64,000 bases of DNA from Escherichia phage vB_EcoM_JN03, in the sequence record OR885871. The stretch is one strand, 5' to 3'. Both the position numbers and the translations under genes were made by a program. The notes beneath the pieces are model-generated. The model made no database searches. It was given only the letters and a program-made list of their open reading frames with translations, and was not told the DNA's origin. Of the stretch, positions 29,139 through 47,834 are shown in pieces. The number at the start of each line of letters is the position of its first letter. Within the stretch, counting starts at the first letter, position 1.

Positions 29139-29976
29139 TAATGGACACAACGGGGTTAAGTATGAAACTCCGTTGTTCTACCAGAATGATTTCCCTCTGT
29201 TCATAGAATTTATGGACACGTTCTTCAATTGGTTGTATAGACAGCAGGGGTTCACTCAAGAAGAGATCTTGGCATATCTGGCAGATACGTCTAGTTGGAT
29301 GAATCCTGAGAGTGAAGATTCTCCGGTTAAACAGCTGATTGATTTAAAGGCTGACAAGACCCCAGGCTCAGAGGCCAAGGATTATTTGTCAGATAAATTT
29401 TTGGTCAGAACATTTGAGAACATGATGGCTCTGGATGCCGAAGAACTTTTAGATGCCGACGGAAGGCCGCTACTGTCAATAGAAGATAAGAACAAACAGA
29501 TAGATGACTGGTATAATGATTTTGGTTTCCAACGAACTGTTGATAAATCATTTCAGGAATTTGGTCATTTTATCCCAGTCGGTTCGGATTCTTTATTGAC
29601 GGCCACGGGCGATACGTTCTCTGTTTATATCGAAGGAACGAAACGGAGAACTCTGGATCATCCGCGTTGGCTGAAATTGTTGAAACACATCTATAAAATA
29701 CGTGGAACAAAGAAAGCGATTGAATTGTTCTTTTGGATATATTTCGGTTGTCCAGTCAGCGTCTATTTTACGAAAGAAGACATAGGCGGTCTGGACGGAA
29801 ATTTTGAATGTGACGGCACGACAGGGATGCGTGATGATTACTATTATGATGAATACACTTATGTTATAGGAGTCCCAGGCGACGTATCTGACTTTGAAGG
29901 TGTGTTTGAGCGCGTCTTCCGTCAGCATTTTCATCCTGCTGGATTTACTGTATTCCTAGAAAGCACAAGGAGCTAA
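29122..29976 (+). CDS. putative baseplate-associated protein (284 aa)
   Basis: Start at MSKDLNNGH with GAGGTG RBS; overlaps gp6 stop; position between baseplate wedge and fiber genes. Confidence 0.4.
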   Translation: MSKDLNNGHNGVKYETPLFYQNDFPLFIEFMDTFFNWLYRQQGFTQEEILAYLADTSSWMNPESEDSPVKQLIDLKADKTPGSEAKDYLSDKFLVRTFENMMALDAEELLDADGRPLLSIEDKNKQIDDWYNDFGFQRTVDKSFQEFGHFIPVGSDSLLTATGDTFSVYIEGTKRRTLDHPRWLKLLKHIYKIRGTKKAIELFFWIYFGCPVSVYFTKEDIGGLDGNFECDGTTGMRDDYYYDEYTYVIGVPGDVSDFEGVFERVFRQHFHPAGFTVFLESTRS

Positions 29977-29978
29977 AA

Positions 29979-31169
29979 ATGGCCGATTTCCTGAGTCAAT
30001 ATACAGGTCAGCAGATAGATCAGATATTGGGTTCTGTTGACGACAAAGTAAGTAAAAATGACGTTATTAACGATTTTGAAGTTAACGACCCATTGTTTCC
30101 ACCATCTGCTCGCCTGACATATGAGTTGAAAAGATCTGTTGACACAATCAATGATACTCTGGCCAACAAAGTTATTCGTACAGATAGTGGTGAACAAACA
30201 ATCAATGGCAAAAAGACTTTCAATGCGTTGTTGGTGACCAATGGGGGCATACAAGTTCCCGCCGGAAAATCCGTTTCAATCACAGATGAACCAACGAACT
30301 CGACAGATGGTGTTAACCTGAGCATGTTGAGAAAGCATGGCGTCAGTGAAGACACTACCCCGCCTGGTTCTGGTTTGGCTGGGGAGTTGTTGACATCCGG
30401 ATATTACAAATTCAATTTGGACTTCACCAGGTTGTCTGCGTATACCGGACCAACGTTGCCGACTTCAGTTCCAGTACAAACAGATTCTGGAGCGCGTTAT
30501 TGGACAATGACTGCATTTTTTGATGCGTTGTTTGCAGACAACCGATTTAATGGATATGTGACAACGACAGCGTATGACGCAGATATGCTGAGTCTAGAAT
30601 CCCAGATTAATAACATCAACACGTCGTTGAACGGGAAAGTCAACACCTCGACTTACAACACTAAGATGGCGTCATTGGATTTGAGTATCTCCAATATCAA
30701 TACGTCTCTGGGTAATAAAGTCGAGGTCAGCACGTACAACACGAAGATGGCATCTCTGGATAACAGCATCAGTTCTCTTTCCAGTGATAAAGTTAGTGTA
30801 TCAACGTATAATGCCAAGATGACCTCTATCGACAATAGTTTGGGGAACGCCGTTTATCGTACCAAAACGAATTTGTCGTCATACACGGTTTCGGCTTCTG
30901 GAACGACGGCTCTTCCAGATTTTGATTTGGTGAACCTTTGTCAAATACTGGTAACTGCGCAATGGGGGATAGGTAACGTTGTTGACACATATCGAGTAAC
31001 CATAACTCGTGACGGAACGATCAAATCAGAGTTGTTAGTTCAGAAAAGTACGAGTGGTACAGTGACGTTCACAGGGTCTGTGGTGGGCGGTAAATTGAGA
31101 ATTTCCGTTGTTAATGCGAATACAACAACTGCTTGTTCTGTTGATTATTCTATTGCAGCTTCTTTCTAA
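29979..31169 (+). CDS. tail fiber protein with three tandem repeats
   Basis: Fiber-type N-terminal segment; repeats VNTSTYNTKMASLDLSISNINTSLGNK x3, also visible as ~60-nt DNA repeats. Confidence 0.6.
   Translation: MADFLSQYTGQQIDQILGSVDDKVSKNDVINDFEVNDPLFPPSARLTYELKRSVDTINDTLANKVIRTDSGEQTINGKKTFNALLVTNGGIQVPAGKSVSITDEPTNSTDGVNLSMLRKHGVSEDTTPPGSGLAGELLTSGYYKFNLDFTRLSAYTGPTLPTSVPVQTDSGARYWTMTAFFDALFADNRFNGYVTTTAYDADMLSLESQINNINTSLNGKVNTSTYNTKMASLDLSISNINTSLGNKVEVSTYNTKMASLDNSISSLSSDKVSVSTYNAKMTSIDNSLGNAVYRTKTNLSSYTVSASGTTALPDFDLVNLCQILVTAQWGIGNVVDTYRVTITRDGTIKSELLVQKSTSGTVTFTGSVVGGKLRISVVNANTTTACSVDYSIAASF
30590..30850 (+). repeat. three tandem ~60-nt direct repeats inside the tail fiber gene
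   Basis: Repeated ...STYNTKMASLD...SISNINTSLGNK coding units. Confidence 0.55.
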
Positions 31170-31171
31170 AA

Positions 31172-31211
31172 CTAAATACCCCTAGATGACATGAATACAT
31201 TTAGGGGTATT
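31172..31211 (+). promoter_or_regulatory. late promoter CTAAATA fused to a 10-bp 5'-UTR inverted repeat whose 3' arm carries the Shine-Dalgarno sequence
   Basis: AATACCCCTA ... TAGGGGTATT, ATG at 31216. Confidence 0.5.
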
Positions 31212-31215
31212 ACAA

Positions 31216-34200
31216 ATGGCCAACAAACCAACACAGCCTCTTTTCCCTTTGGGTTTAGAAACTTCTGAGTCTTCGAACATAAAAGGCTTCAACAACTCCG
31301 GCACTATTGAGCATTCCCCTGGTGCCGTAATGACATTTCCTGAAGATACTGAAGTTACAGGTCTTCCATCTTCTGTGCGTTACAATCCTGATAGTGATGA
31401 ATTTGAAGGTTATTACGAAAACGGTGGTTGGTTGTCTTTGGGGGGCGGTGGAATACGCTGGGAAACGCTCCCTCACGCTCCCTCTAGCAATTTGTTAGAA
31501 GGTCGTGGCTATCTCATTAATAATACCACAGGGACATCTACAGTGGTTCTCCCTTCCCCTACGCGTATTGGGGATTCCGTTACTATTTGTGATGCTTATG
31601 GGAAATTTGCCACTTACCCATTGACCGTGTCTCCTTCTGGAAATAATTTGTATGGCTCCACTGAAGACATGGCTATAACAACTGATAACGTATCAGCAAC
31701 GTTTACTTGGTCTGGACCTGAACAAGGTTGGGTTATCACATCCGGCGTCGGTCTTGGTCAAGGTCGTGTGTACAGTCGTGAAATATTTACACAAATTTTG
31801 GCGTCTGAAACAAGTGCTGTCACTCTCAATACTCCACCAACAATCGTGGACGTGTATGCTGACGGAAAACGTCTTGCGGAATCCAAATATTCATTAGATG
31901 GGAATGTAATCACTTTCAGTCCTTCTTTGCCAGCCAGCACAGAACTTCAGGTGATTGAATATACTCCTATTCAATTGGGTAATGGCGGTGGTTCTGGTTC
32001 TTCTACAATTACCTGGGTCTATAATGGGGGTTCAGCGATTGGCGGTGAAACCGAAATCACGTTAGACATCGTTGTTGATGATGTTCCAGCCATTGATATA
32101 AACGGAAGTCGCCAGTATAAAAATCTGGGGTTCACATTCGATCCATTAACCAGTAAAATCACTCTTGCGCAAGAACTGGATGCGGAGGATGAAGTTGTTG
32201 TAATTATCAATGGAACGCCAAACATCTATAATCAAATTGATTATACTTTGCGGGAAGTGGCTCGTGTAACCAATGTTAAAGATACAGAGGTCATTTATTT
32301 TAGTGTTGGTGCTGTGTTAAGTGGATATAAAGTTATCTATGATAAAGTAACACAGAGATCATATTTTATTCCAGAGTTACCGACTGGAACCACGGCGGTC
32401 AGCCTTAGTTCTTCGGCTGTACTTGTGCATTCTGCTGGTAGTGTTGATCTGGGCGCATTAGCTGTATCTCGTGAAGAATACGTAACATTGTCTGGGACAT
32501 TTGATTCTGGTGCTGTCATCAATGTTAAAAATGAATTACTCACCCACACGGATGGAAAGTATCGCTGGGATGGGGAATTCCCCAAAATCGTTCCGGATGG
32601 TTCAACTCCGGCGACGTCTGGTGGCATTGGTATTGGGTCATGGGTTGCAGTAGGTAATGAAGCAATACGTGTAGAGCTTGCAAGTCCTGCAAGTGGGTAT
32701 GGTGCTGAAATGGTAGCACTGAAACAGCCAGTTTCTGGCTCAAAAGAGCGCACTGTTTACGACTGGATTGCTGATATCATAACTGCAAAGGATGGGGATA
32801 GTATTGTTGCAGATGGTATTAATAATGATGCTGTTGGTATAAACGCTTTCCTACCTGTACTGGCAGCAGCGCAGCGTGAACTCCTTTTAGTTCCTGGCGT
32901 TTATTTGATAAACGATGACATTACAATAGATATTCCGGTAACGATCCAGCCAGGTGCAATCCTGAAGCCTAGAAATGGTGCGCAACTTACGTTCAAATCA
33001 GAGATAAGAGCTGGATGCTATAAAATATTCGACACCGAGGATGATTTTTACACGTCACCTGTCGCCGTGCCATCTGTAAAGATAGCAAAAGGCGGAGTAA
33101 AACCAGAGTGGTTTGGTGCTGCTACGGTGAGTTCTTATGATGAGATTGCATCAGCGGTTAACTGCTCTCCGGCATTCATGAAAGCGTGGAGGGCAACAAC
33201 TGGGGAATATACCGCAAACGTTACGGCATCATACAGGCAGTCTGAGTACATGCACTCGTATATAGACCTATCCGCTGGAAAATACCGCATGGATAAAGAG
33301 GTATTCCTTGGTCACACTGATTTCACACCAACAACTGTAAGATACAACAAAAACGGTGGTGGCGTTATAGGGCAAGGTGCAGGTTTATCTATTCTGGTAT
33401 TCACTGACAGCGAGTATGCTGGGAACGCATATTTTACCGCAAATGATATGTCAGGAGAAATGCACACGTTTAAAGGATTTAAATGTACAGCATTCGATCC
33501 ATCAAAAACAGGCACTGCTCAGTATGAAACAAAAGTTGGCGCAATGATTCTGATTGGTAGCGCTGATTCCATAACTACTTCTGATTTATGGGCCGCTGGA
33601 GCGACTACTGTCGTTGCAGATACTAATGGCTTTGGTAGAGGTGGTGTTGGCATTCAGTTTGATTCTCTTGTAGACCATCAATTTTCTGACCTGTTAGTTG
33701 AACATTGTGTGCATGGGGTGGCATTCAGTTCATGCATTTCAACAGGAAATAACATTAAGGGGTTTGCAAACAAAATTAGTGATTTGTCATTCGGAAACTA
33801 CATCCCTGACTGGCCTCAAATGGTATCACAAACAACTAAGAATACTATAGGGGTTAACGGTTTCGAGTCTAAATTCTGCCTGAATAACCCAATAACATTT
33901 GGCACATATGACAACATGGTTGATATAACCGGTGTTGTTGTTGATGGTCGTGCAGAGTCCTCACTGTCAGTCGTTACCAACCGTGTGATTGGATTTGGTG
34001 TTGGTGGTGGTGTGTCAGGCACTATTTCTGGGTCTGCCAGGAATCTGCTTTTAGGACTAATTGCAGATTTCGGGGTCTCATTTGCAGGAAGGGACGGCGC
34101 ACCATTAAGACTTAATTTCGATATCGAGAATATTGTTGGGGCCTCATCTTCTGAAAACGCCGTTGTCGCTGTTGATAAATCTGACTCCAATTTAATTGGT

Positions 34201-34509
34201 TCGATTGGTATCTCATCATCTGTGTTTCCTATATTGAGGTCATCTAGCACCACCACCACAATTGAAATAAATGCTAGCGACATAACACTAACAACAGGAA
34301 GCCCTTCTGGAACAAATGCAATCTTATGTAAAGGTGGTAACTTAAACGTCACGGCTTTAAAGATATCAAACTCAACAGGAATAACTGGGTTAGTCTACGC
34401 AGAAAATAGTTCTGTATTACTACCTACACACACTATAAGCCCAACAAGAGCAGTGACAAAAGTTGGCGGAGCGACTATTAAATCGTACTCTATAACTGAT
34501 TTTGCTTAA
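31216..34509 (+). CDS. tailspike protein (1097 aa), paralog 1
   Basis: Shares conserved module (EVIYFSVG...YKVIYDK...SVDLGALAVSREEYVTL...KYRWDG...GSTPATSGG) with three downstream paralogs; divergent C-terminus. Confidence 0.65.
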   Translation: MANKPTQPLFPLGLETSESSNIKGFNNSGTIEHSPGAVMTFPEDTEVTGLPSSVRYNPDSDEFEGYYENGGWLSLGGGGIRWETLPHAPSSNLLEGRGYLINNTTGTSTVVLPSPTRIGDSVTICDAYGKFATYPLTVSPSGNNLYGSTEDMAITTDNVSATFTWSGPEQGWVITSGVGLGQGRVYSREIFTQILASETSAVTLNTPPTIVDVYADGKRLAESKYSLDGNVITFSPSLPASTELQVIEYTPIQLGNGGGSGSSTITWVYNGGSAIGGETEITLDIVVDDVPAIDINGSRQYKNLGFTFDPLTSKITLAQELDAEDEVVVIINGTPNIYNQIDYTLREVARVTNVKDTEVIYFSVGAVLSGYKVIYDKVTQRSYFIPELPTGTTAVSLSSSAVLVHSAGSVDLGALAVSREEYVTLSGTFDSGAVINVKNELLTHTDGKYRWDGEFPKIVPDGSTPATSGGIGIGSWVAVGNEAIRVELASPASGYGAEMVALKQPVSGSKERTVYDWIADIITAKDGDSIVADGINNDAVGINAFLPVLAAAQRELLLVPGVYLINDDITIDIPVTIQPGAILKPRNGAQLTFKSEIRAGCYKIFDTEDDFYTSPVAVPSVKIAKGGVKPEWFGAATVSSYDEIASAVNCSPAFMKAWRATTGEYTANVTASYRQSEYMHSYIDLSAGKYRMDKEVFLGHTDFTPTTVRYNKNGGGVIGQGAGLSILVFTDSEYAGNAYFTANDMSGEMHTFKGFKCTAFDPSKTGTAQYETKVGAMILIGSADSITTSDLWAAGATTVVADTNGFGRGGVGIQFDSLVDHQFSDLLVEHCVHGVAFSSCISTGNNIKGFANKISDLSFGNYIPDWPQMVSQTTKNTIGVNGFESKFCLNNPITFGTYDNMVDITGVVVDGRAESSLSVVTNRVIGFGVGGGVSGTISGSARNLLLGLIADFGVSFAGRDGAPLRLNFDIENIVGASSSENAVVAVDKSDSNLIGSIGISSSVFPILRSSSTTTTIEINASDITLTTGSPSGTNAILCKGGNLNVTALKISNSTGITGLVYAENSSVLLPTHTISPTRAVTKVGGATIKSYSITDFA

Positions 34510-34511
34510 CA

Positions 34512-34540
34512 AAAACCCCGCTTCGGTGGGGTTCTTATTA
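34512..34540 (+). terminator. rho-independent terminator
   Basis: CCCCGC-TTCG-GTGGGG hairpin followed by T-rich run. Confidence 0.6.
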
Positions 34541-34571
34541 TACCTTTGTTCATAAATTTTATTAGTTCAGA

Positions 34572-34608
34572 CTAAATACCCCATATTGGTCATCCTTTAT
34601 GGGGTATT
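34572..34608 (+). promoter_or_regulatory. late promoter CTAAATA plus 11-bp 5'-UTR inverted repeat
   Basis: AATACCCCATA (34575-34585) and TATGGGGTATT (34598-34608), ATG at 34612. Confidence 0.5.
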
Positions 34609-34611
34609 ATC

Positions 34612-36525
34612 ATGATTTCTCAATTCAATCAACCACGCGGCTCCACTTCCATAGAAGTTAACAAACAATCTATCGCTCGAAATTTCGGTGTCAAAGAAGA
34701 CGAAGTCATTTATTTCACTGTCGGTATTGATCTCAGCGGATTTAAAGTAATTTATGATGAGTCTACCCAACGGGCTTATTCTCTTCCTTCGGGTATTGTT
34801 TCAGGAACGATTGCGATAAGTCTGAACGAACAAGCCATCCTTACTCATTCTTCTGGCTCTGTTGACCTTGGGGAATTAGCAGTAAGCCGCGAAGAATATG
34901 TGACTTTACCTGGTTCTTTTAATTTCGGTCATACCATTAATGTGAAAAATGAACTTCTTGTTCACGATGATAAAAAATATCGATGGGATGGTTCTTTGCC
35001 AAAGGCAGTTGCCGCTGGTTCTACACCCGATAACTCAGGCGGTGTTGGTTTAGGTGCATGGTTGAGTGTTGGTGATGTATCATTGAGAGCGGATTTGGCT
35101 AGTGGCACACTTGGTAAAGGTGCGAATCTTTTGACATATAAGTCACAAGTATCAAACTCGGTTGCTATAAGCCAACAAATTAAAAATAGTGAAAGGGTTT
35201 CTGTTTTTGAGTATTTGGCTAAGCCTATTCCTGGTTTTGATAATGCATCAGCATTCGCTGCTATGAAAGCTGATGCTGAAGCAGGTGTTGTAATAACAGT
35301 ACCTTCAGGAGTATATGAAACATCTGAACCACTGAGATTCACAAAACCTGTTCAAATATGGTTTGATGTAGGAGTGCGAATAAAACTTACATCTGGTGCA
35401 CATGACCATGTTGTGGAAATAGATTTACGTGGACAAGATGAGGGGTATTGGGGGTATAAACCTTTCTTTGGTGGTGGCAGGGTTATTCTTGATGGTCTTG
35501 GTCATGCTAAGTACGGGCTATCACTTCGTGGCGTAATATCTGGTGGTTTTCCTGGTATTCAAGCAACCAATATAACAACTGCTGGGTTATATCTGGCTTG
35601 GACTCAATGCTGTACATACACTGATTTTATTTGCTCTAATAACGTGGAGGTTTTCACAACAAAACCCCTGCACGGTATTTTAGTAGATAAAGATAACAAT
35701 CCGTCAAATCCACGTGGTACATCATGCGATATCTTTATTAACCCATGTGTAGAGCACACTGCGGGTGATGGGTTTGTAGGACTAAGCCTGATGAACTCAA
35801 TGGTTATAAACGGAACAATCGAGGGAAACCTTGGCGCAGGCATTTCATTGGGGCATCCTACAGATAATACTTACACTGCACTGGGTAATACATTTCTTGG
35901 TATTGACCTTGAGGTGAACACGCTAACTGATATTGTGATTAACAAGTTTTCACACATGAACGAGTTCATAGGACTCAAATCAGGTTATTCATCTCCATCA
36001 GTTCAGGTCAGAGGTTTTCGTAACTATTTCTCTGGAGGTACTGTTAGCGATTTCGACTTCAGGCCAGATAGCCATGACAACCACGTACAGGATGTAACAC
36101 TTTTAGCTGAGTTTCCTGTTGTTAATGATGAAGGGATAAGAAACACTTATGAAAGATTATGGAATCTTAACAATGCTCAAGTTAACGTAAGCACAAACCC
36201 TGTTAACACAAGAAGCAATCAGCCTATAGCGGGAGGTGAGACAGTAACGTTAGACCCATATAAAGCATCCTATGTTGTATGCACCGCAACAGGAACACCT
36301 ATTAATATAGTTTCTGCCACCAAAAAATTAGATGGAGCAAGAATAGATTTGACAATTCACAATGCATCAGGAACAGATTCATTAGTCATTAACTGGGCAT
36401 CAGATATTAGAGTTGGCAATTTTACTCCTCCACCAGCAGGTAAACATAAGGGGTTATCACTAAGATATGATGCTAATTACGGTTATTGGACTGTAGTTGG
36501 TGTTGGACTGGACGCTTTATCGTGA
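34612..36525 (+). CDS. tailspike protein (637 aa), paralog 2
   Basis: Conserved module near N-terminus; divergent C-terminal domain. Confidence 0.65.
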   Translation: MISQFNQPRGSTSIEVNKQSIARNFGVKEDEVIYFTVGIDLSGFKVIYDESTQRAYSLPSGIVSGTIAISLNEQAILTHSSGSVDLGELAVSREEYVTLPGSFNFGHTINVKNELLVHDDKKYRWDGSLPKAVAAGSTPDNSGGVGLGAWLSVGDVSLRADLASGTLGKGANLLTYKSQVSNSVAISQQIKNSERVSVFEYLAKPIPGFDNASAFAAMKADAEAGVVITVPSGVYETSEPLRFTKPVQIWFDVGVRIKLTSGAHDHVVEIDLRGQDEGYWGYKPFFGGGRVILDGLGHAKYGLSLRGVISGGFPGIQATNITTAGLYLAWTQCCTYTDFICSNNVEVFTTKPLHGILVDKDNNPSNPRGTSCDIFINPCVEHTAGDGFVGLSLMNSMVINGTIEGNLGAGISLGHPTDNTYTALGNTFLGIDLEVNTLTDIVINKFSHMNEFIGLKSGYSSPSVQVRGFRNYFSGGTVSDFDFRPDSHDNHVQDVTLLAEFPVVNDEGIRNTYERLWNLNNAQVNVSTNPVNTRSNQPIAGGETVTLDPYKASYVVCTATGTPINIVSATKKLDGARIDLTIHNASGTDSLVINWASDIRVGNFTPPPAGKHKGLSLRYDANYGYWTVVGVGLDALS

Positions 36526-36570
36526 CATCACCAACATTATAAAATGATGTTGTTGCTGTTAAAATTTAAA

Positions 36571-36598
36571 TAACCCCGCTTTGGCGGGGTTCTTGTTA
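36571..36598 (+). terminator. rho-independent terminator
   Basis: CCCCGC-TTTG-GCGGGG hairpin plus T-run. Confidence 0.6.
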
Positions 36599-36629
36599 TA
36601 CCTTTGTTCATAAATTTTATTAGTTCAGA

Positions 36630-36667
36630 CTAAATACCCCATATTGGCAAATCCTTTATGGGGTATT
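36630..36667 (+). promoter_or_regulatory. late promoter CTAAATA plus 11-bp 5'-UTR inverted repeat
   Basis: Near-identical to the cassette at 34572-34608. Confidence 0.5.
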
Positions 36668-36672
36668 TTCAA

Positions 36673-39438
36673 ATGACCAGAAATGTAGAAGAATTATTCG
36701 GCGGCGTAATCACAGCTCCTCACCAGATTCCTTTCACGTATAAATCAAATGTCGGTGGAGAAACTTTCCTTTCTTTGCCGTTCCATCCCGTCACTGGTGT
36801 TATCACAATCAACGGTGGTATGCAAGTTCCGTTAGACAACTTTGAAATCGAAGGAAATACGTTGAATCTCGGGCGCGCATTGTCCAAAGGCGATGTTGTG
36901 TATTGCTTATTCGATAAAATTCTTTCGCCAGAAGATACAGCCAAAGGTATCCGCATATACAAATTTCAGGCCGTGGGAGGTGAAACCGAGTTCACTCCTG
37001 ATTTCACATCCTATGGTGTCCAATCTCTTTATATCGGTGGCGAGTACAAAACACCCGAAATTGAATATTCCTATAACAGCACGACAGGGAAAGTGTCTTT
37101 GCAAACTGCACTGACTGCAGGCGTTTGGGTAGTCGCTGAAATGTCTGTTAAACAACCGAATATCAGTCCGGCGTTTGACCGAAGTATTCAAGAAATCGCC
37201 CGTTCTGCTAATGTAAAAGACTCTGAAGTCATCGTTAGTACGGACACCATATCTTTGTTGGATGGGAAGAAAGTTGTTTATGATATAGCGACGCAAACCA
37301 GTTATGGTTTACCAACCATTCCTGATGGTTCTGTCATTTCTTCTGTATCTGCTGGGAAATTGAATTACAACCCAGGTGATGTGCAGGTTGATTTGTTGCC
37401 TTTAGAAGATTCATTTATTAATGTGATAAACACTCTGGGGCGCAATGATGGTGCCAAGTATATTGGAGAATGCCATTCTGTTGCTGATCTCAGGAATACT
37501 GAACCCACTATGGATGGACAACGCATTATTCTTAAGCAACACACTGCGGGTACTCTTCTTGGCGGAGGGGTATTCCGTGCGTTAATTGATGGTACAGGAA
37601 AGACTGATAATAACGGTACTGTGATCAAAACTGTTGGCGGCGCGGCATGGTTACGTGTTAATGCTGATAGAGTTAACCCATTCATGTTTGGTGCTTTGGG
37701 TGGTTCTAATGATGATACTATTCCAGTACAATCTTGTGTGGATAGTGGTAAGGCCACACAATTAACTGATGCACATTACGTTAGCAATATCCAGTTAAAA
37801 TATAATACGTCGTCTATTTATGGGTCTGGATTACATTACTCAAGGTTGCATCAGTTGCCTTCTGCTACTGGGAATTGTATTACCATAAAAGATACATGCT
37901 CCCTTATTGTATTAGACGCCTTTGGGGTATATGGCACAGGTGCACAACAAGGCATGCCATTTACTGCGGGCACAACAGGTATCTATGTAGAAACTCCTTC
38001 AGGTCTCTCAGCCGATTATCCGTTCCACACTACCGCAGACCCAAGACGCGACTTGTGTATTTCTAAGGTCCATATAGCAGGTTTTGATGAATATGGGTTA
38101 AATATTGATAGTGGTAACTTTAGTGTTACTACAGATTCTCTTTTAGTCAACCACATCAATCAGGTGGGTGTCCGTTGTGCTACTACTGATTGGACTTGGA
38201 CAAATATCCAGGTTAATACCTGCGGTAAACAATGTCTGGTTCTTGATGGTTGTGGTAATGGTCGTATTATTGGCGGTAAATTCATTTGGGCTAACTGGCA
38301 ACCTTATGGTACAGTAGGACAGTTCCCAGGCATTACTATTAATAACAGCCAGAATATGGTTATTAATGGTATTGAGGTACAAGATTGTGGCGGGAATGGC
38401 ATTGAGATTAGCGATTCATATTCAATTTCCATGAACGGATTGAACACCAATCGTAACGGCATCAATGCTAACAACACTTTCTACAACATCGTATTTAACA
38501 AAAGCGATGCAGTTATCAACGGATTCGTAGGACTCAATTATGCCGCGAATAGTGGTTCAGGTGCTAACTCTAGTGCAGGCAATTTTCAGTTCCTGTCTAA
38601 TGATTGTAGTGTCACCATTAATGGTGTGGTTGAGACTGGTTATATGGGCATTAACTTTATTGGTGATAACAATATTATCAACCCCACCAATTCCGACCTG
38701 AGCATTAACGGATTGGTTAATTATTCCAAGACTGGTTTGCAAACCATGAACGAGACCCCTACATTTGATGGTGTTAGCACTACACCTGTTTATGTAAGTG
38801 TCCCATCTTCTGTAGGGCAAGTAAATGGTCTGAGACTATCACAAGCCAACAAAGATAAATTACTGTATTCAAGAACAGCAGGTCCAGAAGGTATTACCAT
38901 GGCTGCTGTTGTAGTACCCACCATATCTGGAGCTGAAGTATTTAACTTCATGGCCATTGGTTCAGGGTTTAGTGATACATCCAACAGTCTTCATCTTCAA
39001 TTAGTTATAGACGCTTCTGGAAAACAAACAATTGCTTTGCTATTGGGGGGCGATGGTACAACCCAAATTTTATCTGGGGATTTACCTAACGACCTTAAAC
39101 TACAAAGTGGTGTACCATATCATATAGCTATTGGTGCTAAACCTGGATATTTCTGGTGGAGTATTCTTAATATTCAGACGGGTAAGAGAATCAGACGGTC
39201 ATTCCGAGGCGCTTATTTAGCCGTACCATTTAATTCTATATTCGGATTAACTTCTTCATTAACATTCTTCTCGGATAGCAATGCTGGTGGGGATGCTTGT
39301 TCTGGGGTTGGTGCTAAAGTGTATGTTGGTATGTTCTCTTCTGAGAACGATTATGTAGCTTCACGATACTACAACCTGATTAATCCTGTAGACCCTACTA
39401 AGTTAATTAGTTACCGTATATTGGATTCTTCTATTTAA
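36673..39438 (+). CDS. tailspike protein (921 aa), paralog 3
   Basis: Start set at MTRNVEE (36673) because the 36658 ATG lies inside the hairpin arm; conserved module about 190 aa in. Confidence 0.6.
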   Translation: MTRNVEELFGGVITAPHQIPFTYKSNVGGETFLSLPFHPVTGVITINGGMQVPLDNFEIEGNTLNLGRALSKGDVVYCLFDKILSPEDTAKGIRIYKFQAVGGETEFTPDFTSYGVQSLYIGGEYKTPEIEYSYNSTTGKVSLQTALTAGVWVVAEMSVKQPNISPAFDRSIQEIARSANVKDSEVIVSTDTISLLDGKKVVYDIATQTSYGLPTIPDGSVISSVSAGKLNYNPGDVQVDLLPLEDSFINVINTLGRNDGAKYIGECHSVADLRNTEPTMDGQRIILKQHTAGTLLGGGVFRALIDGTGKTDNNGTVIKTVGGAAWLRVNADRVNPFMFGALGGSNDDTIPVQSCVDSGKATQLTDAHYVSNIQLKYNTSSIYGSGLHYSRLHQLPSATGNCITIKDTCSLIVLDAFGVYGTGAQQGMPFTAGTTGIYVETPSGLSADYPFHTTADPRRDLCISKVHIAGFDEYGLNIDSGNFSVTTDSLLVNHINQVGVRCATTDWTWTNIQVNTCGKQCLVLDGCGNGRIIGGKFIWANWQPYGTVGQFPGITINNSQNMVINGIEVQDCGGNGIEISDSYSISMNGLNTNRNGINANNTFYNIVFNKSDAVINGFVGLNYAANSGSGANSSAGNFQFLSNDCSVTINGVVETGYMGINFIGDNNIINPTNSDLSINGLVNYSKTGLQTMNETPTFDGVSTTPVYVSVPSSVGQVNGLRLSQANKDKLLYSRTAGPEGITMAAVVVPTISGAEVFNFMAIGSGFSDTSNSLHLQLVIDASGKQTIALLLGGDGTTQILSGDLPNDLKLQSGVPYHIAIGAKPGYFWWSILNIQTGKRIRRSFRGAYLAVPFNSIFGLTSSLTFFSDSNAGGDACSGVGAKVYVGMFSSENDYVASRYYNLINPVDPTKLISYRILDSSI

Positions 39439-39443
39439 AAATA

Positions 39444-39468
39444 TACCCCTCTTCGGAGGGGTCTTTAC
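39444..39468 (+). terminator. rho-independent terminator
   Basis: CCCCTC-TTCG-GAGGGG hairpin plus TCTTTACT. Confidence 0.5.
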
Positions 39469-39489
39469 TAGAAAAACAATGAGGTACTT

Positions 39490-41535
39490 ATGAACGAAAT
39501 GTTTAGTCAAGGTGGTAAAGGTTCGACTGGAATCTTAACCAATAAACAAGCAGTAGCCAGACACTTTGGTGTTAAACAATCTGAGGTTGTTTATGCCAAA
39601 TCAGGACAGTCCTTGTCTGGTTATAAAGTGATCTACGATAAGGTATCTCAACGTGCCTACGCTCTCCCTTCTAACATTGGTGCTGTAACGGTCACCAGTT
39701 TGGTCGACGGCATCCTCACGCACTCTGGAGGCACCGTAGATTTGGGTGCATTGGCTGTGTTAAGGGAAGAGTATGTTACTCTTGTTGAAAATTTTACTTC
39801 TGGATTTACGATTCGTGTCAAGAACGAAGTCGTGAGCGATGGGGTGAGTCTATATCGTTGGGATGGTGCTTTACCTAAAACCGTTGCACCTGGCTCAACA
39901 CCTGAAACAACTGGTGGAGTTGGTTTAGGTGCATGGTTGAGTGTTGGTGTTGCCACATTAAGAAGTGAATTAACATTGAATGTTTCAGATATTAATGGAT
40001 TGATTAACGTTAATACAAGAAACAAAAATTTCATGTATGTTACATCATCGTTTCGAGGGGGTGGAGGTGCTGGTGTATATGTATGGAATCCCACAAAAAA
40101 TAAATCATTACATAACGGAGCGACTATCATAGACCCATCAAGGACTCTACCGATAAACTGGGATTCTCAGTCGCAAATAGATGATTGGTTTACAATTTCA
40201 TCCACAGATGGGGTGGGATGTTTTGAATTAATTGAGGGGGAGAGCTCGGTTAATCCATTGCAGTGGGGCTGCTTGGGCGATTCATCAAAAGACAACCCAC
40301 ATAGTGGGTATGATAACTCTTTAATATCTGATTATGTTGATGACTACGCTGAATCAGTAAATAAAACAGTATTTTGGCCTCACGGTATATTTAGATTCAC
40401 TGGCCCACAGCAAAGAAAGACAAGGCATGATGGACATGAATACATTAGAATGAATAGTGAGTTTTCTACTGTTTTTATTATTGATAATCAGACGCCAATA
40501 ACTTTTCTAAAAGGAAAAGGGATTGGGACCGACCATCAGAAACTGTATGCCCACGGTTCAAGAGGAATAGAATATATTGGCAACCCTAAACGAATCCATA
40601 CTCTTCTTGATGCATACATGTACACGACATCATGGGAGCATTTTGCTGTTCGTGGATTTAAATATGGATTTGATATAAATTTTGTTTCTTTCCATATTCA
40701 GAATTTCTATTTTACTGATAATGAAATTGGAATTTACCCAAAACCACTAATGCCGCCATTGCAAGCTGCCGCACCAAGTACAATGCTATCATTATCTTAC
40801 GGTGCATTTGATTTCAGTAAGAATGGAATAGTATTCACTGAGAGATTTGGGCTTGGCGAGGCAGAAAACGTCATAAACGTAAATCTATCTTCTGTTGTGT
40901 TCGAACAAAATGAATTTGACGGATTCAGTTGTGCTAACTATCCATTACCTGTCGGTGTGAAAAATGCCAACAACAGGGTTATGAACCTTACAGTAAATAA
41001 TTGCTGGGCTGAACTTAACGGTAGAGCTGGTTTCAATTTCGAGAACGCTGACGTAACTGCGAATTCATTGAGAATAAATGAAGCGGATGAATTGATTTAT
41101 CCAGCAGGGGCAAGGACATACTCTATTGATGTAAATGGTGTAAGGGAAACAAACGTACTAAAATCGTCACTTTATGGAGCGCATAATATAGAAGCTCCGG
41201 TATCTGGTCAAATGATAATAAAACCAGATGGTAGCATTTATTCTGGTGCGACAATGCCTTTTACTGTTACAAAGACATCGGAAGGTCAATTTAAATTAAC
41301 GAATGCATCATCTACTCAGGGGTTTCAATACGTATCAATAGAGGTTATGCCATTCGATAGAGCAAGGATTGATACTGTTGTGACATGTGACCCATCAGAT
41401 GTCGCAGCGTTCGTTCAGTTTGGTACAATATCAAGCTATAAGATTGAATTTACATCGAGAGGCACATCTACATTTGTAACTCCAGAGGCTGGTTTCGCAG
41501 TTAAATTCTCATGGGTTCACCCTCTTAATAATTAA
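39490..41535 (+). CDS. tailspike protein (681 aa), paralog 4
   Basis: N-terminal conserved module closely matching paralog 2. Confidence 0.65.
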   Translation: MNEMFSQGGKGSTGILTNKQAVARHFGVKQSEVVYAKSGQSLSGYKVIYDKVSQRAYALPSNIGAVTVTSLVDGILTHSGGTVDLGALAVLREEYVTLVENFTSGFTIRVKNEVVSDGVSLYRWDGALPKTVAPGSTPETTGGVGLGAWLSVGVATLRSELTLNVSDINGLINVNTRNKNFMYVTSSFRGGGGAGVYVWNPTKNKSLHNGATIIDPSRTLPINWDSQSQIDDWFTISSTDGVGCFELIEGESSVNPLQWGCLGDSSKDNPHSGYDNSLISDYVDDYAESVNKTVFWPHGIFRFTGPQQRKTRHDGHEYIRMNSEFSTVFIIDNQTPITFLKGKGIGTDHQKLYAHGSRGIEYIGNPKRIHTLLDAYMYTTSWEHFAVRGFKYGFDINFVSFHIQNFYFTDNEIGIYPKPLMPPLQAAAPSTMLSLSYGAFDFSKNGIVFTERFGLGEAENVINVNLSSVVFEQNEFDGFSCANYPLPVGVKNANNRVMNLTVNNCWAELNGRAGFNFENADVTANSLRINEADELIYPAGARTYSIDVNGVRETNVLKSSLYGAHNIEAPVSGQMIIKPDGSIYSGATMPFTVTKTSEGQFKLTNASSTQGFQYVSIEVMPFDRARIDTVVTCDPSDVAAFVQFGTISSYKIEFTSRGTSTFVTPEAGFAVKFSWVHPLNN

Positions 41536-41540
41536 TATAA

Positions 41541-41568
41541 AAACCCCGCTAATGCGGGGTTTTATTTC
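41541..41568 (+). terminator. rho-independent terminator
   Basis: CCCCGC-TAAT-GCGGGG perfect hairpin plus TTTTATTT. Confidence 0.65.
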
Positions 41569-41589
41569 TATCTGTTTGTTGGCTGTATA

Positions 41590-41596
41590 CTAAATA
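41590..41596 (+). promoter_or_regulatory. late promoter core CTAAATA
   Basis: 34 nt upstream of ATG at 41630. Confidence 0.45.
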
Positions 41597-41629
41597 TCTC
41601 TATAAAATGGCACTCGATGGAGCATCAAA

Positions 41630-44600
41630 ATGCAATCTACAAATTTAAACCGTCGCCCGTATTGGGATGACTGGAATCCTGGGAAACGTTTTTCACGGAT
41701 TCTTTTTCGTCCGATGCCTATCAAGGTTCAGACTCGCGAACTGAACCAGATGCAGACTATTCTTCAGGATCAAATTGAAAAACTGGGCAACCATTTGTTC
41801 AAAGATGGTTCTATGGTTATCCCTGGCGGTCTGACGATCACTAACGCCGCAGTCTCTTTGAAATTCACTTTGGCGGGTGGTACTGAATTCACCGATCTGG
41901 AAGGTATTTCTGAACTCTACGTTTTGGGGAAGGACAATAATGCCAAAGCGCGTGTGTTGTCTCTTGAACGTGATCTGTCTGCTCCTGATACGATGCTGGC
42001 TATCCTTGAGATGACTGAAGCGGGTAATGCTGACGGATTCCATGTTAACGATAATCTGTATTTCCAGACTTACGACGTGAATGATAATTTCATTCGTATT
42101 GGTTATGGTATCGCAGCTGCGGTGACTGGTTCTATCGTCGCTCGTATGACGAAAGGCGTTTACTTCATTCGTGGGATGTTCCTAGACGTTGATGACGCAA
42201 CTCTTATCGTTGATAAAACTTCGAACACGTCTTCCCACCGCATCGGATTTAAAGTCACCGAAACCATTGTCACTGAAACAGAAGATGAATCCCTTTATTC
42301 AAATGCTCAGGGAACGATTAACTCCAAAGCCCCAGGCGCTCATCGTCTTCGAATAGATCTGGTCTTATCTCGATTTGATTATGATGCTGTGGTTGAAGAC
42401 TTTGTTGAACTGGCCAAAGTTCGTGATGGTAAAATCCAGTCTATGGTGACTCAGTCTACCTATAATATTCTGGAAGACACGTTAGCCCAACGGACTTATG
42501 AAACCAACGGCGATTATAACGTTTCAACGCACCAGATCGACATCCGCGAACACCTGAAAGTCAATAACAATGGTGGTGTATTCAATGCTGCTGATGGCGG
42601 TGACGAGAGCAAATTTGTTTCTGTGATGAAACCAGGTATTTCCTATGTTCGCGGTCGACGTATCGAAAATGTCGGGGAAGAACTGGTTATTGTCGACAAG
42701 GCGCGGGATACCGATGTCCTGAATAACACCCCTGTTGCGGTGGCCACAGGCAATTATCTGGTCACTAAGAATTCTAAAGGTGTGCCAGTGATATCCCGCA
42801 CCGTTCGATACAAATTACTGAATGCTTCAGGCGTTACCCAGGCTACAGCACTTTGTATATCAGCTGAACGTAATTCAACAGAATTTCGTCTGTATATGCG
42901 CGACCTGGTCGTTACTGGCGATGCATCCACTATCACCAAAGTGTCTTACGAAGAAAGCGGTATCACCATGTTCTCTGCTGAACTGGAATCCAATCAGTTT
43001 AACCAGAGTTCTATGATAGATCTGATCTTCTCTCTTCCGGTATTCGGTGTCAAGACTTTAGCACCAACTGGCTCCGTGGATATCAACTACACTGTTCTCA
43101 GAACGTATAAAGTGACGTTGGACAACAGCGGCGCGGGTTCTATTTCTGCTCCATTGGGATATAGTTTTTCCCCAGAATTTTCGTTGTACTCTGCAGCGAA
43201 ATCTGATGGTTCTGAAGCGCAGTTCGATATCTCTGGTTCTTTGTCTTTGACTGGTTCTCCGGTCGGTTCGGCGCTGCAGATTTCTCTGGGTAGTGGTAAT
43301 GCTAACCAGTCAATCAATTTGCTGGCGCTGATGATTCGTACCACGGCCACAATCAAAACGAAGACCATCACTGAAACAACTGAAACAGTGACGTTCACCT
43401 CGCAGACTAGCCGTCCTTTGGCGAATCACGATGGTTGGAAATTGGTATCGGTCAAAAACGATACTGGCGCAGACGTGACCTCCAGCTTCGTCCTAGATGG
43501 CGGACAGCGTGATGCAGGGTATTACAAGTCTAACTTGTTATCCAGCGCTGGAGCAATCTCAGGGACGTATACAGTGGTGTATCAATACTTCGCCCACAGT
43601 TCCGGTGATTTCTTCTCTGCTGATTCGTATACTTCGATGGATTATAAAGATATCCCGAATTATACATCTTCTACATCAGGCGCGGTGTACGGCCTGGCAG
43701 ATAGTTTGGATTTCCGTCCGAAAATCACCAACGGAACTTCTGACACAGATATGGTTCGTCCAAACACTGCAGTTATTCTGGACACAGAATATTATCTGCC
43801 GCGTATTGACGCGATTTATCTGGCAGACAACGGTGTGTTTGGTGTGGCTCGAGGCATTAGTTCTAACAACCTGGCTTCTCCAGCAATCCCAGCGAACGCC
43901 ATGCGTTTGTATGAATTGTTGATCCCACCGTATACGCCGAATATTGATGATATACAAATTCGCACTATTGACAATCGTCGTTATACGATGCGCGATATCG
44001 GTAAACTGGAAACCCGTATTTCCAATGTTGAATACTATACCTCTCTGTCACAGCTGGAATCTTCGGCGATGACACAGCAAGTGTTCGACCCCATCACGGG
44101 TAATCCCCGTTTCAAAAATGGTATTGCGGCTGATCCGTTCAAAGACTTCCGGTTGATTGATGACTTGTCTGAAGATTGGATGGGTTCTATCGATACCGAA
44201 AACGGACGTCTGCGCCCGTTTGTACAACAAAACGTTGTTGACATGACTCCTGTTGGCTGGAACAAAGTGATGGATGGGATGGTGGTTTGCAATTACACGC
44301 CTGAAATCTCAGTGAACCAAGAATATGCGACGACGACGATCAACGTTAACCCGTACGCAGTATTCAATTGGGAAGGTTTCTTGAAGATTAACCCGACCAC
44401 AGACTACTGGTTCGAAAACTATTATGTTGCACCGCGTATTATCAATGAAACGATCAACACCCGTGGTACTGTACAAGAAGGTTCAGTGTACGGAACATGG
44501 CGTACTGTTTCTGTTTCTGATCGTGTTTGGGAACCGCATGGTGCTGGTGGTGTGTGGTGGGGATATCGTTACCGCACGACTGTTTCTGCCCGTGATGTCA

Positions 44601-46468: not shown

Positions 46469-46520
46469 ATAATGTTGAAAGGTGGGCGTAAAGCCCACCA
46501 AACCAATAGAGGATAAAAAT

Positions 46521-46769
46521 ATGCGTGGAGTGAAAGTACAGGGGCACGCATCCATGTTGAGAAGCAGTTCTTGCCCTGGCGCGATTATTTGCACCGATCA
46601 CGCCGCTGGCATGGCTGCATTGCAAGCCCGTCAACGCAATGAAACTCGTGAAGCCACCATTGTTGAACAATCAAACCAGATATCTAATCTGGAGGCGACA
46701 ATCAAAATGATGGCCGAAAAGTTGGGGATCGAAATCCCCGAAGGAGGTCAGAATGGCGACGCAAGCTGA
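46521..46769 (+). CDS. hypothetical protein (82 aa)
   Basis: Start at MRGVKVQ with GAGGA RBS. Confidence 0.35.
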   Translation: MRGVKVQGHASMLRSSSCPGAIICTDHAAGMAALQARQRNETREATIVEQSNQISNLEATIKMMAEKLGIEIPEGGQNGDAS

Positions 46770-47094
46770 AAGAACGGGGCTTGACATCCGTGGTATCTTA
46801 ACCGCTGTCGTGGCTTCTGCATTGGTCTCGGCAGCATCGTTCCTTTGGTTCATGGGCGGGATGGAAACGCGCGTGAATGTATTGGAACGAGATTCCAACA
46901 AGATGGATCAAGTTCTTCAGAAAGTGAATGACATGAGTGAACGTATGGCGATCATGAATACTGACCTCGCATATGTCAAACAAAACATGGCTGAGTTAAA
47001 ACTCAATAGCAGCAGTCTTTCAGATGATGTTCGCACACTGCGGATTACTGTATCTGATTTGCAGCAAAAGGGGAATAACAATGGCCGTCAATAA
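46753..47094 (+). CDS. membrane-anchored coiled-coil protein (113 aa)
   Basis: GAAGGAGG RBS; TM segment ILTAVVASALVSAASFLWFM followed by heptad-like region. Confidence 0.4.
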   Translation: MATQAERTGLDIRGILTAVVASALVSAASFLWFMGGMETRVNVLERDSNKMDQVLQKVNDMSERMAIMNTDLAYVKQNMAELKLNSSSLSDDVRTLRITVSDLQQKGNNNGRQ

Positions 47095-47833: not shown

Positions 47834-47834
47834 G

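What the first reader, a model, noticed from the sequence alone, without database searches (positions are those of the whole stretch)
31216..41535. Four tandem tailspike paralogs with a shared attachment module and divergent distal domains
ORFs of 1097, 637, 921 and 681 aa all contain a conserved ~130-aa module (VIYFxVG, YKVIYDK, SVDLGALAVSREEYVTL, KYRWDG, GSTPxxSGG) but have unrelated C-terminal regions. This is the multi-tailspike layout typical of ViI-like phages and implies four receptor or depolymerase specificities. The C-terminal domains are the likely host-range determinants.
Basis: partly seen in the sequence, partly recalled or inferred. Interest (0 to 1): 0.5.

Follow-up and report, generated by a model that had tools for sequence, protein, structure and literature searches.

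The report
Kuttervirus four-tailspike host-recognition gene cluster
This is the well-known four-tailspike gene cluster of a CBA120/ViI-type (Kuttervirus) phage: an ordinary layout, but three of its four sugar-cutting tips have not been seen in any sequenced phage of this group.

Summary
The four ORFs are real and at the stated coordinates. They are the tsp4-tsp3-tsp2-tsp1 cluster of a Kuttervirus, with the same gene order as phage CBA120 and about 97-98% nucleotide identity in the conserved parts.

The shared module is the D1-D2 "head" (TD1-TD2; D2 = Pfam PF18668) plus neck. It is complete in only three proteins (54-58% identity between TSP1, TSP3 and TSP4 over 145-163 aa). TSP2 has D1 only (about 31-36% identity) and lacks three of the five quoted motifs.

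Published CBA120 work shows the head is not a baseplate-attachment domain. It docks TSP1 onto TSP4-XD3 and TSP3 onto the TSP2:TSP4 complex. TSP4 alone anchors to the baseplate, through its N-terminal AD.

The four distal domains:
- **TSP2:** 99.1% identical to the O157-specific CBA120 TSP2, with catalytic residues intact.
- **TSP3-C:** pectate-lyase-like by profile.
- **TSP1-C:** has only three close relatives among 5.8 billion proteins and could not be modelled.

Verdict: a known system and a new member. The novelty is limited to the set of receptor-binding domains.

The parts
31216..34509 (+). tsp4 (1097 aa), the scaffold spike. Domains: AD aa 1-75 (31216-31440), XD1 aa 80-178 (31453-31749), XD2 aa 189-249 (31780-31962), XD3 aa 265-335 (32008-32220), D1-D2 head and neck aa ~340-491 (32233-32688), distal beta-helix body aa 492-1097 (32689-34506).
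34612..36525 (+). tsp3 (637 aa): D1-D2 head and neck aa 1-~165 (34612-35106); distal body aa ~166-637 (35107-36522).
   Evidence: PDB 6NW9/5W6F (CBA120 TSP3) match aa 1-177 only. The head is 93% identical to CBA120's. PF18668 at aa 90-155. The body matches phrog_18522. A profile of its relatives hits Sf6 tailspike, pectin lyase, polygalacturonase and CBA120 TSP3 at the start of the beta-helix. Relatives carry PF12708.
36673..39438 (+). tsp2 (921 aa): XD2-XD3 aa 1-168 (36673-37176), single D1 aa ~169-245 (37177-37407), then neck, D3', beta-helix and D4 body (37408-39435). This is the O157-specific spike.
   Evidence: PDB 6W4Q (full-length CBA120 TSP2) E=0 over aa 1-921. Identity is 99.1%, with 8 substitutions and none at D506, E568, D571 or Y623. 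The longest ORF starts at 36658, but that ATG lies inside the upstream hairpin.
39490..41535 (+). tsp1 (681 aa): basic D1-D2 head and neck aa 1-~165 (39490-39984); a widely shared sub-domain aa ~161-270; an orphan distal body to aa 681.
   Evidence: PDB 4OJ5 (CBA120 TSP1) matches aa 1-179 only. The head is 69% identical to CBA120's but 97.5% to Salmonella phage SeKF_19's. PF18668 at aa 91-153. The body has 3 close relatives in 5.8e9 proteins and about 7 relatives at 25-30% identity. AF2 failed.
31172..31211 (+). CTAAATACCCC motif followed by a 5' stem-loop directly upstream of tsp4. Equivalent elements lie at 34572-34608 (tsp3) and 36630-36668 (tsp2). There is none before tsp1.
   Evidence: Four exact copies occur in 64 kb, three of them here; the chance expectation was 0.73 even with one mismatch allowed. 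Hairpins fold at -19 kcal/mol with z about -5. The promoter role is inferred.
34514..34533 (+). Terminator-like GC hairpin after tsp4. Equivalents lie at 36572-36591 (after tsp3), 39445-39462 (after tsp2) and 41540-41563 (after tsp1).
   Evidence: The 79-nt spacer 34511-34589 is repeated at 36569-36647 with 95% identity.

Best explanation
The region encodes the branched four-tailspike receptor-binding complex of a Kuttervirus (Ackermannviridae, CBA120/ViI type).

Assembly (inferred here from near-identity to CBA120, where it was shown experimentally):
- TSP4 is the scaffold. Its N-terminal anchor domain (AD) binds the baseplate.
- TSP4's XD2 binds the XD2 of TSP2.
- TSP4's acidic XD3 receives the basic D1-D2 head of TSP1.
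- The head of TSP3 docks onto the TSP2:TSP4 complex.

It is a trimeric adaptor, and its conserved coding sequence also serves as the left-hand homology arm for swapping the distal receptor-binding cassette. The conserved terminator and spacer after each gene serve as the right-hand arm.

Each distal body is a trimeric beta-helix enzyme that binds and cuts one surface polysaccharide, so the virion carries four specificities:
- TSP2 targets E. coli O157 O-antigen (99.1% identical to the characterised enzyme).
- TSP4, TSP3 and TSP1 carry cassettes acquired from unrelated sipho- and P22-like phages of Salmonella, Citrobacter and E. coli. Their receptors are unknown. A Salmonella O:41-type O-antigen is a weak guess for TSP4.
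For: Identity and synteny:
- Megablast to 252 phage records, almost all Kuttervirus, covers only the conserved half of the region at about 97%.
- The gene order matches CBA120, from the gp6 baseplate wedge through orf215, TSP4-3-2-1 and orf209.

Architecture:
- TSP4 aa 1-338 matches PDB 7REJ, and aa 1-401 are identical to CBA120.
- TSP2 matches PDB 6W4Q over its full length.
- Heads with PF18668 are present in TSP4, TSP3 and TSP1.
- Charge complementarity is kept: TSP1 aa 1-90 has net charge +3 (pI 9.4) and TSP4 XD3 has -9 (pI 4.05).

Assembly rules come from the analytical ultracentrifugation and crystal work on CBA120 (PMC8825819) and a review (PMC11721090).

Cassette exchange:
- DNA identity to CBA120 and to the nearest relative (L002, 98%) stops at 32573, inside the TSP4 head, and resumes at 34511, just after the stop codon.
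- Protein identity to donor-like spikes jumps from 30-50% to 90-100% at the head/body junction.
- The same TSP1 body sits behind a PF18668 head in a siphophage-like contig and behind a P22 head-binding domain in another contig.

Folds:
- The TSP3-C profile hits pectate-lyase-type enzymes.
- The TSP1-C profile hits the PF12708-type N-cap of PDB 6C72, AlgE and pectin lyase.
Against: - No experiment on this phage exists. Complex assembly is extrapolated from CBA120.
- TSP1-C could not be modelled (pLDDT 28). Its own Pfam hits are below threshold, and hhalign links it to TSP3-C only over a 69-column N-cap and not to TSP4-C.
- TSP3-C was not modelled.
- No catalytic residues were assigned for TSP4, TSP3 or TSP1.
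- The O:41 guess rests only on the serovar names of assemblies that carry relatives. More distant relatives occur in other serogroups and in Citrobacter.
- The TSP1 head is only 69% identical to the CBA120 head that was tested biochemically.
Confidence: 0.93

Rival explanations
1. One reading: the shared ~130-aa module is a common baseplate-attachment domain, so the four spikes attach to the baseplate independently and in parallel.
For: The module lies at the extreme N-terminus of TSP3 and TSP1, where attachment domains usually are. It is found in 975 phage records in front of diverse bodies.
Against: - In TSP4 the module is internal (aa ~340-491), behind AD-XD1-XD2-XD3.
- TSP2 has only D1.
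- In CBA120, TSP1, TSP2 and TSP3 do not associate without TSP4-N.
- The TSP1 head binds TSP4 XD3, TSP3 needs a preformed TSP2:TSP4 complex, and the TSP4 head is not required for partner binding (PMC8825819).
Confidence: 0.03
2. One or more distal domains, above all the orphan TSP1 body, is not a glycoside hydrolase. It could be a binding-only module or an enzyme with other chemistry (lyase, deacetylase or esterase).
For: - TSP1-C has no Pfam, PHROG or NCBIfam family for its body.
- It has no PDB sequence relative beyond an N-cap motif, and the structure prediction failed.
Against: - The TSP1 body is 97-100% conserved over about 300 aa in three different phage chassis, which argues for a selected function.
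- Remote relatives carry PF12708, PF13229 and endosialidase-chaperone domains typical of depolymerases.
- All four CBA120 spikes and most solved beta-helix spikes are enzymes (PMC7506556).
Confidence: 0.15
3. The unusual TSP4 distal part is an assembly chimera, with reads of a co-occurring phage joined through the conserved head sequence, rather than a real recombinant gene.
For: - The nearest relative (98% identity) has a different TSP4 body.
- No exact copy of this TSP4, TSP3 or TSP1 is on record.
- The left junction lies in sequence that is repeated three times in the cluster (D1 repeat family).
Against: - The ORF is intact and in frame.
- The right junction falls exactly at the conserved terminator, as at the other tsp genes.
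- Such swaps are the documented mode of Kuttervirus evolution (PMC8432352; PMC11414711).
Confidence: 0.03

Closest known systems
Escherichia phage CBA120 TSP1-4 branched receptor-binding complex (orf210-213; Plattner 2019; PMC8825819; PMC7506556)
   Same: - Same gene order and neighbours.
- TSP4 aa 1-401 are identical, and 95.5% over aa 1-491.
- TSP2 is 99.1% identical over its full length, including the catalytic residues.
- The TSP3 head is 93% identical.
   Different: - The distal bodies of TSP4, TSP3 and TSP1 are unrelated to CBA120's at sequence level.
- The TSP1 head is a different allele (69%).
Kuttervirus contig ABMJMY010000009.1 (158,163 bp) in 'E. coli' assembly GCA_031520405.1 (L002)
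   Same: 98% nucleotide identity over window 34511-51535. TSP3 is 99.8% and TSP1 99.6% identical, with the same TSP2.
   Different: Its TSP4 (1011 aa) shares only aa 1-488. The body differs from both this window and CBA120.
Tailspikes of P22-like prophages and siphophages of Salmonella, Citrobacter and E. coli (for example P0004 in a S. Waycross assembly, P0006/P0007, Enterobacter phage Arya, E. coli phages hz69 and GZMU_E2010)
   Same: They carry homologous distal bodies: TSP4-C 92-46% and TSP3-C 93-46% identity.
   Different: They have other N-terminal adaptors (P22 head-binding PF09008, T7-type PF03906, or a lone PF18668 head) on other virion types.
Podophage G7C two-spike complex, gp66 and gp63.1 (PDB 4QNL; G7C assignment from memory)
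   Same: The D1-D2 head of the docking spike is homologous (4QNL E 1e-48 to 1e-56). The docking logic is the same, head onto XD3 of the scaffold spike (PMC8825819).
   Different: Two spikes rather than four, a podovirus tail, and a different anchor domain.
Phage T4 gp10 baseplate adaptor
   Same: The XD1-XD3 folds of TSP4 and TSP2 serve as trimer docking platforms (PMC8825819).
   Different: gp10 carries no enzymatic body, and sequence identity is only about 10%. Not tested here beyond identity with the solved CBA120 fragment.

Membership tests
Kuttervirus (CBA120-type) branched four-TSP complex | Four adjacent tsp genes in the order tsp4-tsp3-tsp2-tsp1, between the baseplate-wedge genes and the orf209 homologue | tested here: met
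   colinear with CBA120 orf217-orf205 at 97-98% nucleotide identity outside the distal cassettes.
Kuttervirus (CBA120-type) branched four-TSP complex | TSP4 with the N-terminal AD-XD1-XD2-XD3 scaffold | tested here: met
   PDB 7REJ E 6e-222 over aa 1-338. Aa 1-401 are identical to CBA120. The Gly-rich linkers are present in the translation.
Kuttervirus (CBA120-type) branched four-TSP complex | TSP2 with XD2-XD3 and a single D1 head | tested here: met
   PDB 6W4Q over aa 1-921, 99.1% identity. No PF18668 (D2) hit.
Kuttervirus (CBA120-type) branched four-TSP complex | TSP1 and TSP3 begin directly with the D1-D2 head and neck | tested here: met
Kuttervirus (CBA120-type) branched four-TSP complex | Physical assembly of the four trimers into one branched complex on the baseplate | not testable with these tools
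   Inferred from identity with CBA120 parts (PMC8825819) and from retained charge complementarity.
Beta-helix tailspike depolymerases (pectate-lyase-like superfamily, PF12708/PF13229) | Right-handed parallel beta-helix body | tested here: met
Beta-helix tailspike depolymerases (pectate-lyase-like superfamily, PF12708/PF13229) | The same fold in TSP3-C and TSP1-C | tested here: inconclusive
   TSP3-C: profile hits to the N-terminal coils of pectin lyase, polygalacturonase, Sf6 and CBA120 TSP3 (E 3e-11 to 1e-6), and relatives carry PF12708, but it was not modelled. TSP1-C: only N-cap matches, its own Pfam hits are below threshold, and AF2 failed.
Beta-helix tailspike depolymerases (pectate-lyase-like superfamily, PF12708/PF13229) | Carboxylate catalytic pair and polysaccharide cleavage | not testable with these tools
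   Verified by conservation only for TSP2 (D506, E568, D571 unchanged). Invariant Asp and Glu columns exist in the TSP4-C and TSP3-C alignments but were not assigned.
Pfam PF18668 Tail_spike_N (TSP1/Gp66 N-terminal domain, = D2) | Score above the gathering cut-off (25 bits) | tested here: met
   TSP4 76.2 bits, TSP3 99.9 bits, TSP1 76.2 bits. Not met by TSP2.
'Haemolysin-type calcium-binding protein' (RefSeq label of TSP4 orthologues) | RTX/haemolysin-type Ca-binding repeats | tested here: not met
   No such Pfam or NCBIfam hit in TSP4. The label seen appears to be a legacy annotation.

The most novel reading that the evidence does not exclude
The distal body of TSP1 (aa ~270-681) would represent an uncharacterised lineage of phage polysaccharide-active enzymes.

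- It has only three close relatives among 5.8 billion proteins, each on a different virion chassis.
- It belongs to no PHROG, Pfam or NCBIfam family.
- It has no solved relative beyond the N-cap.

It could have a receptor specificity, and possibly a catalytic chemistry, not yet described. Together with the new TSP3 and TSP4 bodies, this would make the phage an O157 Kuttervirus with three unknown extra host specificities.
Probability: 0.3. Interest if true: 0.35.

Novelty: new member of a known kind. Interest (0 to 1): 0.2.

Why it matters
The system itself is textbook for Ackermannviridae, so nothing conceptual changes. The practical value is as a natural example of cassette exchange. Two phages that are 98% identical differ by exactly one TSP4 receptor-binding cassette, with junctions in the conserved head and at the conserved terminator. 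Three receptor-binding bodies are new to the genus. Such bodies are raw material for the tailspike-chimera engineering already practised on CBA120-type phages (PMC9965104, PMC12737597). Their receptors, once determined, would extend the tables that predict host range from TSP subtype (PMC8432352).

Tried and rejected
- **AF2 of TSP1-C** with the only 3 admissible homologues gave pLDDT 27.9, so no model and no fold search was possible.
- **Megablast of the three distal regions** against 50,697 phage records found nothing.
- **Exact-protein look-ups** of TSP1, TSP4 and TSP3 found nothing on record, so the window's source could not be identified.
- **IMG/VR scans:** the best TSP4-C relative is 53% identical and TSP1-C has none.
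- **NCBIfam** gave no hits for any of the four proteins.
- **Rfam** gave nothing in 30900-41800.
- **hhalign of the TSP1-C profile against the TSP4-C profile** gave probability 4%, so no link.
- **BLASTP of TSP1 aa 161-270 against the D3' region of TSP2** was not significant (E 0.21), and phmmer of that sub-domain against the PDB found nothing. The idea that it is a D3'-type domain stays unproven.
- **Antisense ORFs of 126-178 aa inside the tsp genes** have no PHROG match and are treated as spurious.
- **Sigma-70 promoter scan** found fewer sites than shuffled controls, so it is uninformative.
- **Literature search for the CTAAATACCCC late-promoter motif** found no supporting paper in the library.
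- **Profile searches with full-length homologues** were dominated by the homologues' P22-type head-binding domains and had to be read by profile position.
Full report
**Observation.**
The four + strand ORFs exist as described: 31216-34509 (1097 aa), 34612-36525 (637 aa), 36658-39438 (926 aa) and 39490-41535 (681 aa). Pairwise BLASTP shows a strongly significant shared segment in three of them:
- TSP4 aa 346-488 vs TSP1 aa 20-161: 54%, E 3e-40.
- TSP3 aa 1-162 vs TSP1 aa 1-161: 58%, E 2e-51.
- TSP4 aa 341-590 vs TSP3 aa 14-264: 44%, E 3e-56.

The 921-aa protein aligns only over the first half of the module (its aa ~161-263). Identity there is 31-36% over 84-118 aa, E 1e-7 to 1e-8. A longer 25% alignment to TSP4 mainly reflects similarity of the upstream XD3 domains. 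It has no counterpart of SVDLGALAVSREEYVTL, KYRWDG or GSTPxxSGG. Pfam PF18668 (Tail_spike_N) is found in the 1097-, 637- and 681-aa proteins but not in the 921-aa one. The statement that all four contain the module is therefore true for three and half-true for the fourth. Beyond the module the four proteins are unrelated in sequence.

**What it is.**
Megablast of the region hits 252 phage records, nearly all Kuttervirus (ViI/CBA120-like Ackermannviridae). It covers only about half of the query, at about 97% identity. The annotated CBA120 region is colinear: gp6-like baseplate wedge, orf216, orf215, then orf213 (TSP4), orf212 (TSP3), orf211 (TSP2), orf210 (TSP1), then the 1612-aa orf209 homologue and the neck genes. 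The window's ORFs are therefore tsp4, tsp3, tsp2 and tsp1.

Comparison with solved structures fixes the architecture:
- **TSP4:** aa 1-338 matches PDB 7REJ, the AD-XD1-XD2-XD3 fragment of CBA120 TSP4 (E 6e-222). Aa 1-401 are identical to CBA120.
- **TSP2:** matches the full-length CBA120 TSP2 structure 6W4Q over aa 1-921. Identity is 99.1%. None of its 8 substitutions touch Asp506, Glu568, Asp571 or Tyr623, the experimentally defined catalytic residues.
- **TSP3 and TSP1:** match solved CBA120 TSP3 and TSP1 only in their first 160-180 residues.

**What the shared module is.**
In the CBA120 literature TSP1, TSP3 and TSP4 carry two homologous N-terminal domains, D1 and D2 (also called TD1 and TD2), which form the 'head'. 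A short helical 'neck' follows. TSP2 carries D1 only (PMC8825819; PMC7506556). That is exactly the pattern seen here.

Analytical ultracentrifugation with domain deletions gave these results:
- The TSP1 head binds XD3 of TSP4.
- TSP2 binds TSP4 through its own XD2.
- TSP3 needs its head and a preformed TSP2:TSP4 complex.
- TSP1, TSP2 and TSP3 do not interact without TSP4-N.
- The head of TSP4 itself does not impede partner binding, which also occurs with a TSP4 fragment lacking it.

The N-terminal ~80 residues (AD) of TSP4 are assigned as the baseplate anchor, by inference from the homologous G7C gp66. The module is thus a spike-to-spike docking adaptor in TSP1 and TSP3 and an internal spacer in TSP4 and TSP2. 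It is not a common baseplate-attachment module.

In this window the electrostatic complementarity invoked for docking is retained: TSP1 aa 1-90 has net charge +3 (pI 9.4), and TSP4 XD3 has -9 (pI 4.05). The TSP1 head is a different allele from CBA120's (69% identity) but is known in other kutterviruses, for example 97.5% in Salmonella phage SeKF_19. The head occurs in 975 phage records across many genera. It is also homologous to the head of PDB 4QNL, which from memory is the G7C gp63.1 spike.

**The distal domains.**
None of the distal regions of TSP4 (32716-34509), TSP3 (35152-36525) or TSP1 (40030-41535) has a megablast match in 50,697 phage records.

*TSP4-C*
- At protein level it is 49% identical to the tail spike of Enterobacter phage Arya.
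- In the 5.8-billion-protein collection its best relatives are 92% and 90% identical ~740-aa spikes with a PF18668 head. Next come 81-83% P22-type (PF09008) prophage spikes of Salmonella, then more distant ones that carry PF12708.
- The 92% relative sits in a siphovirus-like 46.9-kb contig of a Salmonella serovar Waycross assembly.
- Several lower-identity clusters also come from Waycross and from subsp. arizonae 41:z4,z23:-, but also from 62:z4,z23:-, serovar Bron and Citrobacter. A Salmonella O:41-type receptor is only a weak guess.
- An AF2 model from a 30-sequence alignment is confident (pLDDT 88.1, pTM 0.87).
- Foldseek returns tailspikes and beta-helix glycosidases at probability ~1.

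*TSP3-C*
- It is 52% identical to the tailspikes of two E. coli phages with ~43-44-kb genomes and 43% to a PhiSH19-type kuttervirus spike.
- In metagenomic contigs it is 84-93% identical to spikes with PF18668 heads.
- Many relatives carry PF12708 or are named 'glycosyl hydrolase family 28-related'.
- It belongs to phrog_18522.
- A profile of the family hits the first coils of Sf6 tailspike, pectin lyase, polygalacturonases, beta-1,3-glucanases and CBA120 TSP3.

*TSP1-C*
- This is the outlier. It has three close relatives in 5.8 billion proteins: one in the E. coli-assembly kuttervirus contig, one behind a PF18668 head in a siphophage-like contig, and one behind a P22 head-binding domain.
- It has no relative in IMG/VR and no PHROG for the body.
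- An exhaustive phmmer search finds 383 proteins, but almost all match only aa ~161-270. The body has about seven relatives at 25-30% identity. Some of these carry PF12708, PF13229 and endosialidase-chaperone domains.
- A profile hits only the PF12708-type N-cap of PDB 6C72, the AlgE epimerases and a pectin lyase. hhalign links it to the TSP3-C family over the same cap (95% probability, 69 columns).
- AF2 failed (pLDDT 28). A beta-helix depolymerase fold for TSP1-C is probable by transitive homology but not shown.

**Mosaic structure and mechanism of exchange.**
- The window is not in the collections as such.
- Its nearest relative is a 158-kb contig in an 'E. coli' assembly (GCA_031520405.1). 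Identity is 98.1% over window 34511-51535 and 97.8% over 29247-32573, but 32574-34510 is not shared. The two phages have the same TSP3 (99.8%), TSP2 and TSP1 (99.6%) and differ by exactly the TSP4 distal cassette.
- The left break (nt 32573, codon ~453) lies in the D2-coding sequence. The right break lies at the first base after the stop codon, where a conserved terminator-like hairpin begins. The breaks relative to CBA120 are analogous for tsp3 (35075 and 36569) and tsp1 (39594 and 41537).
- Protein identity to donor-like spikes steps from 30-50% in the head to 90-100% in the body.
- This matches the published view that conserved N-termini and flanks let kutterviruses swap receptor-binding modules or whole tsp genes, including with P22-like phages (PMC8432352; PMC11414711). 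The 'GTTAVSL' recombination motif proposed there is present in this TSP4.

**Surroundings and both strands.**
- Each tsp gene is followed by a GC-rich hairpin with a T-rich tail.
- tsp4, tsp3 and tsp2 are each preceded by an exact CTAAATACCCC. There are four copies in the 64 kb; the chance expectation was 0.73 even with one mismatch allowed.
- That motif is part of a strong stem-loop (-19 kcal/mol, z about -5) whose 3' arm (GGGG) lies 8-10 nt before the ATG.
- tsp1 has only a 51-nt spacer without the motif. From memory this motif is the late-promoter consensus reported for ViI-like phages. I could not verify that in the library.
- Antisense ORFs of 126-178 aa have no family match, and Rfam finds nothing.

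**Comparison, novelty and verdict.**
Every defining feature of the CBA120-type branched TSP system that can be tested in silico is met (see the membership table). Physical assembly and enzymatic activity cannot be tested here. The layout, the head module, the variable bodies and their horizontal exchange are all published. What is new is the particular set. An O157-specific TSP2 is combined with three distal bodies that no sequenced kuttervirus in the phage collection carries, and one of them (TSP1-C) has no characterised or even family-level relative. I rate this a new member of a known kind, of low general interest (0.2), with modest practical interest for host-range prediction and tailspike engineering.

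Noticed in passing
window 31172-31211, 34572-34608, 36630-36668 (also 19456-19466, minus strand): An exact CTAAATACCCC motif lies immediately upstream of tsp4, tsp3 and tsp2. Each is embedded in a strong stem-loop (about -19 kcal/mol, z about -5) whose 3' arm GGGG is the only Shine-Dalgarno-like element, 8-10 nt before the ATG. The inner stem sequences differ between tsp4 and tsp3/tsp2 while pairing is kept. It may be a late promoter plus a 5'-UTR stabiliser or translational element. tsp1 lacks it.
   Followed up: partly
window 34511-34589 and 36569-36647: The 79-nt spacer (terminator hairpin and AT-rich stretch, running into the promoter-like motif) is duplicated at 95% identity after tsp4 and after tsp3. 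It could serve as a right-hand homology arm for cassette or whole-gene exchange.
   Followed up: partly
L002 (GCA_031520405.1, contig ABMJMY010000009.1, 158,163 bp): A complete-length Kuttervirus genome sits as a single contig in an E. coli isolate assembly. This could be carrier state, pseudolysogeny or contamination. Its TSP4 gene (1011 aa by my translation) is not among the called genes in the record.
   Followed up: no
window 22664-23962 (minus strand): The tRNA cluster reads Ser(gct), Gln(ttg), Asn(gtt), Met(cat). CBA120's annotation has Ile(gat) in the second position instead of Gln.
   Followed up: no
window 41630-46468: The 1612-aa orf209 homologue directly downstream of tsp1 (DUF4815; phrog_358 and phrog_877, function unknown) is a very large conserved virion-region protein with no assigned role.
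   Followed up: no
window 50142-52352: The 736-aa terminase large-subunit homologue is longer than typical. In the near-identical L002 record the product has a faint Intein_splicing hit next to Terminase_6N.
   Followed up: no
window 39970-40299 (TSP1 aa 161-270): A ~110-aa sub-domain between neck and body (motif ...YxW..xxxK..HNGxTIIDP...) matches several hundred otherwise unrelated 500-900-aa proteins in the exhaustive search (383 hits). It has no Pfam or PDB sequence match. It may be a common post-neck adaptor domain (D3'-like?) that lacks a family model.
   Followed up: partly
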